Position numbers and translations under genes: made by a program. From Diploschistes diacapsis (taxonomy: Eukaryota), in the NCBI GenBank assembly GCA_023645945.1, contig JALAIB010000027.1, positions 1 to 45,730 of the forward strand: 45,730 bases of DNA, read 5' to 3'. Of the stretch, positions 42,446 to 42,846 are shown piece after piece; within the stretch, counting starts at the first letter, position 1, and the number at the start of each line of letters is the position of its first letter. The notes beneath the pieces were generated by a model that saw only the letters and a program-made list of their open reading frames with translations, was not told the origin of the DNA and made no database searches.

Positions 42446-42846
42446 CTAGTAACCGTTCCCGATAGCGTTGAGATTAACATCCTCGACGGAGCTGATGCCT
42501 CGTTTGTAGCCATTTCCAATTGCCTCAAGGTTTACCGCGCCAGCAGAGTGCACGGTTCTCTTATACCCATTCCCAATTGCCTCAAGCTTGACATCCTCGG
42601 CCGATGACACAGCTCGCTTATAGCCATTCCCAATAATACCGAGATTAACTGCATCGGCGGATTTGCCCGCGTGAGCCTCTTTTAGTTTTTGATTAGTCTT
42701 GTTCGAAACAAGTACAGGGAATAGAAGGATCTTTGGTTGTAGAAAGCATGGCACTCTTTTTCGTACATACCGGCGTCGGCAATCGGAACCGCAGCGCTGA
42801 TTGCTGAGAGACTTAAAGTCAAGATACTAAGGTAGGTGAATTGCAT
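42446..42846 (-). CDS. KEX2-processed repeat protein / putative dikaritin RiPP precursor (102 aa, 2 exons)
   Basis: Exon 1 (42846-42771) encodes a signal peptide-like MQFTYLSILTLSLSAISAAVPIADA. Intron 42770-42679 has GTATGT, CTAAT and AAG. Exon 2 encodes four ~19-aa repeats ending IGNGY and separated by KR. Confidence 0.88.

What the first reader, a model, noticed from the sequence alone, without database searches (positions are those of the whole stretch)
42446..42846. Precursor with unfamiliar core: four V-x-L-x-x-I-G-N-G-Y repeats
Spliced product: MQFTYLSILTLSLSAISAAVPIADAEAHAGKSADAVNLGIIGNGY-KR-AVSSAEDVKLEAIGNGY-KR-TVHSAGAVNLEAIGNGY-KR-GISSVEDVNLNAIGNGY-stop. IGNGY is invariant while its codons vary synonymously, which suggests selection at the peptide level. 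Two repeats carry the ED dipeptide seen before ustiloxin and phomopsin cores. The terminal GY-KR resembles asperipin-2a (FYYTGY). All four repeats differ, so up to four congeners are possible. The core differs from YAIG/YVIG, YVIPID and FYYTGY.
Basis: partly seen in the sequence, partly recalled or inferred. Interest (0 to 1): 0.85.

Follow-up and report, generated by a model that had tools for sequence, protein, structure and literature searches.

The report
Four-core peptide precursor, dead enzyme neighbours
This is a real gene for a secreted precursor carrying four copies of a short peptide, and it belongs to a previously unnoticed precursor family of ustiloxin-like peptide gene clusters in lichen fungi, but the modifying-enzyme genes beside it in this genome are broken.

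Summary

It is not an orphan. A homologous small gene lies 0.7-2.1 kb from a UstYa/DUF3328 gene in 20 of 79 related metagenome loci. It has the same signal peptide, my preferred splice models share a phase-1 intron, and the core is V-[NDK]-hydrophobic-x-x-[IVML]-G-x-[GEA]-Y. In all but one type the core is single and ends at the stop codon. These loci form a conserved ustiloxin-like cluster of two UstY genes, tyrosinase and O-methyltransferase.

A 2025 survey of lichen UstY clusters reported that it could not find a precursor. None of the core strings I searched appears in a fungal RiPP paper.

The window's own cluster is decayed:
- UstYa has no start codon, an in-frame TAG and a frameshift.
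- Tyrosinase lacks its N-terminal part.
- A MetE-fold gene has a stop.
- The ABC transporter is a fragment.

Expression could not be tested because no RNA run was found.

Verdict: a new variant of a known kind (dikaritin-type RiPP precursor), probably no longer matured in this genome.

The parts
42771..42846 (-). Precursor exon 1: start codon, 23 uncharged mostly hydrophobic residues (probable signal peptide), and the start of the pro-region.
   Evidence: 10-residue Kyte-Doolittle windows 1.4-1.9; small residues at -1/-3 for cuts after residues 14, 15, 17, 18 or 19. tblastn finds the same kind of N-terminus (MQF..., 39-52% identity) in 10 loci, among them L001, L003, L010, L011, L014 and L002. 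No SignalP was available.
42679..42770 (-). Phase-1 intron, 92 nt, GTATGT ... ACTAAT ... AG.
   Evidence: In my preferred GT-AG models a phase-1 intron lies at the same place, just after the signal/pro-region, in L001, L003, L011, L014, L002 and L020. These models were chosen among several possible ones per locus. No RNA evidence.
42446..42678 (-). Precursor exon 2 with four 16-residue units, three KR sites and the stop TAG (42448-42446).
42620..42667 (-). Unit 1 (ends VNLGIIGNGY), followed by KR at 42619-42614.
   Evidence: unit sequences and codons.
42563..42610 (-). Unit 2 (ends VKLEAIGNGY), followed by KR at 42562-42557.
42506..42553 (-). Unit 3 (ends VNLEAIGNGY), followed by KR at 42505-42500.
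   Evidence: P0155 ends in the same ten residues.
42449..42496 (-). Unit 4 (ends VNLNAIGNGY), followed directly by the stop codon, as in the single-core relatives.
43584..44506 (-). UstYa/DUF3328 pseudogene. There is no in-frame ATG between the upstream stop (44527-44525) and 44377, which lies inside the membrane anchor. An in-frame TAG at 44143-44141 stands where homologues have Lys. One extra base at 43803 shifts the frame, and TAA follows at 43800-43798. The conserved Cys of the Q-C-x-A-D block is Tyr. Both HxxHC motifs are still readable.
   Evidence: Pfam pieces. Translations. 31 homologues, 26 of them carrying PF11807. tblastn of the intact homologue P0007 gives three contiguous pieces in three frames. 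Coordinates. A second assembly of run X1, at word depth about 122, agrees over 41269-44845 with 2 other letters and no gaps.
40748..41163 (+). Tyrosinase remnant. Only the last ~50 residues of the main exon and the C-terminal exon are left. Everything N-terminal of that, including the first part of the copper-binding central domain, is absent.
   Evidence: Pfam matches only profile positions 193-213 of 214. The L011 tyrosinase matches the window at its residues 254-303 and in the C-terminal exon, and nowhere else at E<=0.01.
39739..40519 (+). Fungal-rhodopsin-domain membrane protein gene, cut at its 3' end. Together with the tyrosinase 5' loss this looks like one deletion.
   Evidence: Pfam. 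The L011 homologue's C-terminal ORF has no match in the window.
38173..39207 (-). Homologue of a conserved cluster gene with no Pfam family and a MetE-like fold, interrupted by an in-frame TAA at 38454-38452.
   Evidence: tblastn gives 55% identity over 347 residues with one stop. Stop coordinates. Fold.
36224..37325 (-). ABC transporter fragment: parts of one transmembrane domain and the first 28 profile positions of the ATPase domain. All are below Pfam cut-offs, and the fragment ends at an AT-rich block.
44866..45730 (.). AT-rich, high-copy repeat that ends the contig on the side where relatives carry the second UstY gene and the O-methyltransferase.
   Evidence: Summed word depth is 1402 (X1) and 17608 (X2) at 44866-45000, against about 122 (X1) over 41324-44711. 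GC is 0.30 with RIP-like indices. There is no tblastn match to the L011 OMT or UstYb in the window. The window is the whole contig (the window's own protein is listed with longest contig 45730).

Best explanation
The gene at 42446-42846 (minus strand) is a genuine two-exon gene for a secreted peptide precursor.

The family. It belongs to a conserved family of small precursors that I could not find described. Each has a signal peptide, a short pro-region, and a ten-residue core V-[NDK]-hydrophobic-x-x-[IVML]-G-x-[GEA]-Y. In all types but one the core occurs once and ends at the stop codon.

The cluster. Family members lie 0.7-2.1 kb from a UstYa/DUF3328 gene. They sit inside a ustiloxin-like cluster of two UstY oxidases, a tyrosinase and an O-methyltransferase. 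One cluster type (L003/L011) also carries a fungal-rhodopsin-type membrane protein and a MetE-fold protein.

The window's gene. In this fungus the unit has been multiplied to four, separated by KR sites. The fungus is a lichen-associated member of Lecanoromycetes, judging by its closest named housekeeping match.

Inferred mechanism, by analogy with ustiloxin and phomopsin:
1. The precursor enters the ER.
2. Kex2 cuts after KR in the Golgi, and the basic residues are trimmed off.
3. The UstY oxidases and the tyrosinase cross-link the now C-terminal Tyr to an aliphatic side chain. The conserved I/V/M/L four residues upstream of the Tyr is the obvious candidate.
4. The methyltransferase then acts.

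What is shown rather than inferred. In this genome the neighbouring enzyme genes are dead: the UstYa pseudogene, the truncated tyrosinase, the MetE-fold gene with a stop and the ABC fragment. The second UstY and the OMT are not on the contig. The precursor is therefore most likely a still-intact relic of a recently decayed cluster. At most it yields linear peptides, unless enzymes encoded elsewhere act on it.
For: Gene and repeats.

Long purifying selection on the peptide:
- IGNGY among the four repeats: pS 0.90, pN 0.
- The last ten residues of the repeats: pN/pS 0.16.
- The last ten residues of 4 orthologous loci: pN/pS 0.07.

UstYa directly upstream: (31 homologues, 26 with PF11807).

Homologous precursors next to UstYa:
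- The motif gives 20 matches in 19 of 79 loci and 0 in the reversed-sequence null. L021 adds one more variant.
- The N-terminus and the preferred phase-1 intron are shared.
- A read-through homologue used as query finds 9 library proteins at E<=1e-3. Five of the 8 fetched carry the core, and P0155 has the exact ten residues of unit 3.

Conserved cluster content and order. blastn of the window against the loci also matches the tyrosinase, rhodopsin-like and MetE-fold genes, not only UstYa.

Decay in the window. A second assembly at word depth about 122 gives the same sequence.

Tyr-Ile side-chain cyclisation, and the need for DUF3328 proteins and a tyrosinase in ustiloxin and phomopsin, come from passages of PMC7329392.
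Against: - No RNA data, so expression and splicing are unproven (one search listed no RNA holder).
- The precursor ORF itself is intact. That could mean it is still used, but a rough count argues otherwise. About 4 disabling lesions in ~1.85 kb of neighbouring coding sequence predict only ~0.7 lesions in 306 nt. This is my estimate and not a formal test.
- No whole genome is held, so functional UstY or tyrosinase paralogues elsewhere cannot be excluded. Related loci L012 and L017 carry two enzyme sets side by side.
- In a ~94%-identical relative (run X2, one contig, depth 4.6), exon 2 carries two 1-nt indels in homopolymer runs, at 42662 and 42480. They would put about 180 nt out of frame. This fits decay, but at that depth they may be errors.
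- The chemistry of the product is entirely inferred. No member of this precursor family has a known product.
Confidence: 0.65

Rival explanations
1. The precursor is still an active RiPP precursor. UstY oxidases and a tyrosinase encoded elsewhere in the genome mature it in trans into up to four cyclic congeners.
For: The ORF, all three KR sites and all four cores are intact, and the cores show strong past purifying selection. Relatives can carry two UstY/tyrosinase sets in one region (L012, L017). The contig ends in a repeat, so more genes may lie beyond it.
Against: Every cluster partner that can be seen is broken. The X2 relative may carry frameshifts in exon 2. Trans-maturation by a paralogous set is not shown for this family.
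Confidence: 0.2
2. It now works as an ordinary Kex2-processed repeat protein. The secreted linear decapeptides or longer units act as signals or effectors without any cross-linking.
For: In passages of PMC7329392, 6120 of 7878 catalogued KEPs have no DUF3328 gene nearby. The KR sites and signal peptide need no cluster enzymes.
Against: Every homologue found sits beside a UstYa gene, and most are single-core without dibasic sites. So the family's ancestral role is as an enzyme substrate. There is no evidence of expression.
Confidence: 0.1
3. It is an alpha-factor-type mating pheromone precursor.
For: Signal peptide plus KR-separated repeats is also the alpha-factor layout (general knowledge, recalled).
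Against: - There are no x-Ala or x-Pro dipeptide spacers after KR; the residues after KR are AV, TV and GI.
- The core has no Trp, Cys or Pro.
- Homologues are single-copy and always adjacent to UstYa, tyrosinase and OMT genes.
Confidence: 0.01
4. It is a chance ORF or a tandem DNA repeat without a gene.
For: No RNA evidence. The 76-residue exon 2 found nothing in the word-indexed protein search at near lengths.
Against: The pattern occurred in 0 of 100 shuffles. Synonymous sites are saturated while the residues are conserved. Homologous genes with the same structure stand in 20 loci and in 5 fetched library proteins.
Confidence: 0.02

Closest known systems
Ustiloxin pathway (precursor UstA with YAIG/YVIG cores; UstYa, UstYb, tyrosinase UstQ, methyltransferase)
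   Same: - Secreted precursor with KR-separated repeats.
- In relatives the cluster has two UstY/DUF3328 genes, a tyrosinase and a methyltransferase.
- Tyr and an aliphatic residue are the conserved core positions. Tyr-Ile cyclisation and the need for a tyrosinase come from passages of PMC7329392.
   Different: - The core is ten residues with Tyr at the C-terminal end and the aliphatic residue four positions before it (I-G-x-G-Y), not Y-x-I.
- The family norm is one core ending at the stop codon, not many repeats.
- The methyltransferase has the O-methyltransferase fold (Methyltransf_2).
- Extra conserved genes are present (rhodopsin-type membrane protein, MetE-fold protein).
- The window's enzymes are pseudogenes.
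- The gene names UstQ and UstM are recalled.
Lichen 'Clan R1' UstY clusters (Pasinato and Singh 2025, PMC12048977; read: abstract, passages, section 14)
   Same: - Lichen-forming Lecanoromycetes.
- Two UstY homologues with HxxHC motifs, a tyrosinase and an O-methyltransferase.
- The paper states that no repeated precursor could be found and that a single core peptide is one possibility.
- The L024/L025-type loci have the OMT between the two UstY genes, as described for Clan R1.
   Different: - I compared no sequence from that paper, so identity with Clan R1 is not shown.
- No FGE-sulfatase domain was seen in the ORFs I scanned in L003, L011, L014 and L025.
- The window's best named housekeeping match is Thelotrema (76%), which is not Parmeliaceae.
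- That paper reports no precursor. Here a candidate precursor family is identified.
Asperipin-2a (precursor AprA, core FYYTGY, one DUF3328 oxidase)
   Same: The core ends in G-Y before a dibasic site, and a DUF3328 protein is the cyclising enzyme (recalled; the core string was not found in the paper text I searched).
   Different: - Here there is a single aromatic residue per core.
- The cluster has a tyrosinase and a methyltransferase. As far as I recall the asperipin cluster lacks both.
- No sequence comparison with AprY was possible.
Kex2-processed repeat proteins (KEPs; Umemura 2020, PMC7329392)
   Same: Signal peptide, four repeats, three KR sites, and a DUF3328 gene next door.
   Different: - The core strings are absent from the 3 supplementary files held for that paper. 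Its Table S2 appears to list KEPs by accession and type, so this is weak evidence of absence.
- Most relatives of this gene would not qualify as KEPs at all, because they have one core and no dibasic site.

Membership tests
Kex2-processed repeat protein (KEP) | N-terminal signal peptide | tested here: inconclusive
   There are 23 uncharged, mostly hydrophobic residues with small residues at -1/-3 for several cut sites. The N-terminus is conserved in homologues. No signal-peptide predictor was available, and there is no basic residue in the n-region.
Kex2-processed repeat protein (KEP) | Three or more repeated units separated by dibasic (KR) sites | tested here: met
   Four units and three KR sites. 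The pattern occurs 3 times in the window and 0 times in 100 shuffles.
Dikaritin / UstYa-type RiPP cluster (five-feature definition of Ding et al. as quoted in PMC12048977) | Precursor with N-terminal leader and repeated core motifs | tested here: met
   In relatives the core is mostly single.
Dikaritin / UstYa-type RiPP cluster | DUF3328 (UstYa) protein(s) with two HxxHC motifs in the cluster | tested here: inconclusive
   One UstYa gene lies 0.74 kb upstream and both HxxHC motifs are readable (HHIHC, HIEHC). But it is a pseudogene: no start codon, a TAG and a frameshift. Related loci L003, L001 and L014 show no break inside conserved blocks and carry a second UstY.
Dikaritin / UstYa-type RiPP cluster | Tyrosinase in the cluster | tested here: inconclusive
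   Only a C-terminal remnant is present at 40748-41163. A full-length central domain is present in L011 and relatives.
Dikaritin / UstYa-type RiPP cluster | Methyltransferase in the cluster | tested here: not met
   The window has no match to the L011 OMT. The contig ends in a repeat where relatives carry it. It is present in relatives (Methyltransf_2).
Dikaritin / UstYa-type RiPP cluster | Transporter or peptidase | tested here: inconclusive
   Only an ABC transporter fragment below Pfam cut-offs. An S10 carboxypeptidase is present in the L025-type cluster.
Dikaritin / UstYa-type RiPP cluster | Side-chain cross-linked cyclic peptide product | not testable with these tools
   No metabolite data. 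No member of this precursor family has a known product.
Alpha-factor-type pheromone precursor | Repeats flanked by KR plus x-Ala/x-Pro spacer dipeptides, with a Trp/Cys/Pro-containing mature peptide | tested here: not met
   The residues after KR are AV, TV and GI, and the core has no Trp, Cys or Pro. Homologues are single-core genes inside UstYa clusters. The defining features themselves are recalled.

The most novel reading that the evidence does not exclude
The small two-exon gene family found here is the missing precursor of the UstY/tyrosinase/O-methyltransferase clusters of lichen-forming fungi. It would define a new dikaritin subclass with two unusual features. The core is normally single and sits at the very C-terminus. 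The invariant Tyr is the last residue and would be cross-linked backwards to an aliphatic residue, giving an I-G-x-G-Y ring topology unlike Y-x-I of ustiloxin and phomopsin. The window's four-core, KR-punctuated version is then a natural experiment that marks the boundaries of the processed unit.
Probability: 0.5. Interest if true: 0.75.

Novelty: new variant of a known kind. Interest (0 to 1): 0.62.

Why it matters
Fungal UstYa-type RiPPs include antimitotic mycotoxins, namely ustiloxins and phomopsins, and only a few core types have known products.

A 2025 survey of 111 lichen-fungus genomes found conserved UstY/tyrosinase/OMT clusters but no precursor, and called this a mystery (PMC12048977). 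The family identified here is unannotated, tiny, intron-split and mostly single-core. It supplies a concrete candidate precursor and a core motif for such clusters. That makes their products directly searchable by mass spectrometry and testable by heterologous expression.

The window's gene is the clearest member, because its four KR-separated copies show which part of the sequence is the unit under selection.

The locus also shows how such clusters die. The enzymes decay first, while the very short precursor gene stays open.

Tried and rejected
- Word-indexed protein search with exon 2 (76 aa, near lengths only): 981 candidates, none at E<=0.01. Longer and shorter proteins were not searched.
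- Metagenome scan for GNGYKR, 39 free bases, then GNGY: 0 loci. The pattern was validated on the window.
- RNA evidence: no RNA holder was listed, so nothing can be said on expression.
- Runs X3 and X4 laid nothing. X2 gave no cover over 43634-44711 (UstYa), which is not evidence of absence.
- RIP as the cause of decay: indices over 36-45 kb are unremarkable. Only 34.5-36 kb and 45.0-45.7 kb look RIP-like.
- My first repeat screens of the loci (identical 4-mers, three or more times) missed the homologues, because they are single-core. They found only unrelated KEPs.
- Sequence search of the MetE-fold protein against PDB sequences: only a chance hexokinase hit (E 0.15). The fold search resolved it.
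- Earlier findings of this scan: none by place, sequence or words.
The sources and organisms of P0153-P0161 are therefore unknown.
- Literature: IGNGY (9 papers, none fungal); AIGAGY, EAIGNGY, NLEAIG and AIGNGY (0 papers); IGDGY, IGSGY, IGAGY and VGDEY (29 papers, 25 listed, none on fungal RiPPs by title or abstract). The topic searches gave no description of this precursor.
- Subscription journals are largely outside the library, and bioRxiv supplements are closed, so prior description cannot be excluded.
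Full report
**1. The observation**

The minus strand of 42446-42846 holds an ATG (42846-42844) and a 76-nt first exon. A 92-nt intron follows (42770-42679), starting GTATGT, with ACTAAT 17 nt before the AG. A second exon runs to a TAG at 42448-42446.

All four units fit V-x-L-x-x-I-G-N-G-Y, and three are followed by KR. A degenerate DNA pattern for GNGYKR, 39 free bases and GNGY matches three times in the window and never in 100 dinucleotide-preserving shuffles.

The claim that IGNGY is kept while its codons drift is correct. Summed over the six repeat pairs:

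| Segment | Result |
|---|---|
| IGNGY | 18.0 synonymous differences on 20.0 sites; 0 non-synonymous on 70 |
| Last ten residues | pN/pS 0.16 |
| Six-residue spacer | pN/pS 0.67 |

These pairs are not independent, so I use the figures descriptively. They show that the four copies are old and were long held by selection on the peptide.

**2. The surroundings**

Pfam scans of the 114 stop-to-stop ORFs of 95 aa or more, and of 126 ORFs of 35 aa or more near the finding, show that most of the window is housekeeping. It holds a Brr2-like helicase, Mlp1/TPR, TFIIE-beta, DHBP synthase, a beta-carbonic anhydrase and Rpb3. The last 10 kb holds cluster-type genes.

- **UstYa.** Directly upstream of the precursor, on the same strand, are pieces of a UstYa/DUF3328 gene (43801-43929, E 2.7e-4; 43961-44140, E 0.034).
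- **Tyrosinase.** Downstream is a piece covering only profile positions 193-213 of 214 (40876-41163, E 3e-8).
- **Others.** Further on are a fungal-rhodopsin-domain gene and weak ABC transporter pieces.

The closest named match of the window's DHBP synthase is Thelotrema lepadinum (76%), followed by many lichen-forming and other ascomycetes. The only run that holds the whole stretch is labelled lichen metagenome. The host is therefore a lichen-associated ascomycete, probably in Lecanoromycetes.

**3. The UstYa gene is broken**

Reading it through with X at the stop found 31 homologues, 26 of them carrying PF11807. They include intact 237-257-residue proteins of Paecilomyces, Aspergillus and lichen MAGs.

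The intact homologue P0007 aligns to the window in three contiguous pieces in three different frames:
- 44407-43952
- 43920-43804
- 43802-43620

The lesions are these:
- An in-frame TAG at 44143-44141, where homologues have the Lys of a conserved E-Y-S-P-K-N-H-S block.
- One extra base at 43803 inside the conserved Q-C-x-A-D-x-T-P block, followed by TAA in the old frame.
- Tyr in place of the invariant Cys of that block.
- No in-frame ATG between the upstream stop (44527-44525) and 44377, which lies inside the membrane anchor.

Homologues place no intron at the TAG. P0007 reads straight through the frameshift block, and in the window the two pieces are only one base apart, which leaves no room for an intron. 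An independent assembly of run X1, at word depth about 122, reproduces 41269-44845 with two other letters and no gaps. X1 may be the source sample, so this rules out assembly error but is not independent biology.

**4. The precursor has relatives, and they sit in the same place**

A scan of metagenome contigs with an alignment of eight UstYa homologues returned 79 loci. tblastn with the window's two exons found the following in these loci, 0.7-2.1 kb from the UstYa match:
- the same kind of N-terminus (MQF..., 39-52% identity);
- a second exon ending in ...VNLEAIGAGY followed by the stop codon.

A motif written from these, V-x-[LFVIM]-x-x-[IVML]-G-x-[GE]-Y followed by a stop or a dibasic pair, gives 20 matches in 19 of the 79 loci (828 kb, six frames). 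It gives none in the reversed sequences. L021 adds a variant ending in VNLGRLGAAY.

The distinct endings are:

| Loci | Core ending |
|---|---|
| L001, L011, L003 group | VNLEAIGAGY |
| L004, L019 | VNLEAMGAGY |
| L014 | VDLEAIGAGY |
| L002 | VDVGKIGSGY |
| L005, L006 | VDITQIGDGY |
| L024, L025, L026, L028, L031 | VDVTQIGDGY |
| L020 (two cores, with RR and KR) | VNFDSVGDEY and VDFEAVGDEY |

The remaining 59 loci gave no match. Many are short contigs or distant UstYa relatives.

In the GT-AG models I prefer, those with a GTAWRT-like donor, a phase-1 intron lies just after the signal/pro-region in the window and in L001, L003, L011, L014, L002 and L020. Each locus allows several models, so this is inference.

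A read-through homologue from L019 was used as query against 1.84 billion representative proteins and found nine hits at E<=1e-3. Eight were fetched:
- Five carry the core. P0155 has exactly DDVNLEAIGNGY as a single copy. P0161 has VNLKAIGAGY followed by KR and a tail.
- Three are first-exon pieces.
- The ninth hit, 711 aa, was not fetched.

Across four orthologous loci the last ten residues have pN/pS 0.07. V at position 1, G at 7 and Y at 10 are invariant in all types seen.

**5. The cluster**

In L011, L001 and the L003 group the gene order is as follows:
1. O-methyltransferase
2. a second UstY (opposite strand)
3. UstYa
4. the precursor
5. tyrosinase
6. a fungal-rhodopsin-domain membrane protein
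7. a 340-369-residue protein without a Pfam family

In L003 a Zn2Cys6 regulator and an FAD monooxygenase lie on one side and a housekeeping gene on the other. The L024/L025 type has UstYa, precursor, OMT, second UstY and tyrosinase, and also an S10 carboxypeptidase and an FAD/BBE oxidase.

The window keeps this order in mirror image. blastn matches the loci not only in UstYa but also in the tyrosinase, rhodopsin-like and unnamed genes.

The unnamed protein folds with confidence (pLDDT 84, pTM 0.88, five-sequence alignment). It resembles cobalamin-independent methionine synthase catalytic domains (best E 9.4e-7, TM 0.57-0.59). It has invariant H-L-C and E-C-G motifs in the five-sequence alignment.

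**6. Decay in the window**

Besides UstYa, the following are damaged:
- The L011 tyrosinase matches the window only at its residues 254-303 and in the C-terminal exon.
- The rhodopsin-like gene stops matching at 40519, and its C-terminal part is absent. One deletion appears to have removed the end of one gene and the start of the next.
- The MetE-fold gene (39207-38173) is 55% identical to L011's over 347 residues but carries a TAA at 38454-38452.
- The ABC transporter is a fragment that ends at an AT-rich block.
- The second UstY and the OMT have no match in the window.

These points rest. The contig ends in a high-copy AT-rich repeat on the side where the second UstY and the OMT would lie.

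The UstYa lesions are few and the remaining sequence is still 45-87% identical to P0007 over the three pieces. The death therefore looks recent compared with the age of the four repeats.

An intact 306-nt precursor is not evidence of function. At the lesion density of its neighbours I expect about 0.7 lesions in it, which is my rough estimate.

In the ~94%-identical relative X2, one low-depth contig covers the precursor. It shows two single-base indels in homopolymer runs inside exon 2, at 42662 and 42480. They would put about 180 nt out of frame. They may equally be errors.

**7. How it most likely works**

*Shown:*
- the gene, its repeats and its KR sites;
- its conserved family;
- its fixed position beside UstYa in a UstY/tyrosinase/OMT cluster;
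- the broken state of the enzymes here.

*Established for relatives* (passages of PMC7329392):
- Ustiloxin and phomopsin cores are cyclised between Tyr and Ile side chains.
- DUF3328 proteins are considered the cyclases.
- A tyrosinase is indispensable.

*Inferred:*
- Family members enter the secretory pathway.
- In multi-core members Kex2 cuts after KR or RR and a carboxypeptidase trims, leaving Tyr as the last residue. Single-core members have it there already.
- The UstY pair and the tyrosinase then cross-link that Tyr to an aliphatic side chain, with the conserved I/V/M/L four residues upstream as first candidate. Methylation follows.
- In this genome that chemistry is probably no longer available. 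The gene is a relic or at most a source of linear peptides.

I put 0.65 on this combined reading. I give 0.2 to maturation in trans by enzymes elsewhere, 0.1 to a purely linear KEP role, and little to the pheromone or chance readings.

**8. Comparison with what is known**

The enzyme set is that of ustiloxin-type dikaritins. The core is not: Tyr is last instead of first, the core has ten conserved positions, and it is usually a single copy.

Pasinato and Singh (PMC12048977; I read the abstract, 12 passages and section 14) describe lichen clusters with two UstY genes, a tyrosinase and an OMT. They state that no repeated precursor could be found and that a single core is one possibility. The family found here fits that gap. 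However, I compared no sequence of theirs and saw no FGE-sulfatase in the ORFs scanned, so sameness with their Clan R1 is open.

None of the core strings I searched occurs in a fungal RiPP paper of the searchable library. None occurs in the supplementary files held for the KEP catalogue or the lichen survey. The KEP table seems to list accessions rather than sequences. Subscription papers are mostly outside the library.

**9. Verdict**

It is a new variant of a known kind, and the most informative member of an apparently undescribed precursor family. In this particular genome it is probably a survivor of a dead cluster. Interest 0.62.

Noticed in passing
window 38173-39207 (-); L011:17936-18955, L003:16736-17752, L014:2143-3129, L020:10035-11045: A conserved cluster gene without any Pfam family folds like the catalytic domain of cobalamin-independent methionine synthase. 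It has invariant H-L-C and E-C-G motifs in a five-sequence alignment. Its role in a peptide pathway is unknown. The window's copy has an in-frame TAA.
   Followed up: partly
L064:3204-3656 (+); L061/L063 about 10680-11165 (-) (L062 by the opposite-strand ORF listed there); L076/L077 about 9229-9804 (-): Other Kex2-type repeat precursors lie in loci that encode more distant UstYa relatives. One has NWYYDSD seven times between KK(K)R sites. One has a ~30-residue unit ending in YSTWNNRDGDKKK three times. One has units ending in VDVADGFKR. Pfam gives them no family.
   Followed up: no
L019:10001-10601 and L019:7949-8143 (also L004): The UstYa of this locus has a stop inside a conserved block and Trp in place of a conserved Cys. 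Its precursor has Met in place of Ile in the core, and its intron is open in frame. This may be a second, independent case of cluster decay.
   Followed up: partly
L012 and L017 (for example L017:5018-17982): Two sets of UstY, tyrosinase and OMT genes lie side by side in one region. No core motif was found there with my patterns.
   Followed up: no
window 40820-40880 and the L011 tyrosinase (13428-14351, -): The tyrosinases of this cluster type read G-P-H-V-A-I-P where, as I recall, tyrosinases have H-x-x-x-H at the second copper site. The intact L011 protein shares this, so it is a family trait and not damage. It was not checked against a solved structure.
   Followed up: no
window 34501-36000 and 44866-45730: Two AT-rich blocks (GC 0.38 and 0.30) with RIP-like dinucleotide indices flank the decayed cluster. 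The second is a very high-copy repeat in both the X1 and X2 runs and ends the contig.
   Followed up: partly
window 42408-43586 (run X2, one contig): A relative about 94% identical covers the precursor and the spacer up to the UstYa 3' end. It has 68 substitutions and 10 gaps. Two single-base indels fall inside exon 2, both in homopolymer runs, at depth 4.6.
   Followed up: partly
window 32740-33930 (+): A 397-residue open frame without any Pfam match lies between the housekeeping block and the decayed cluster.
   Followed up: no
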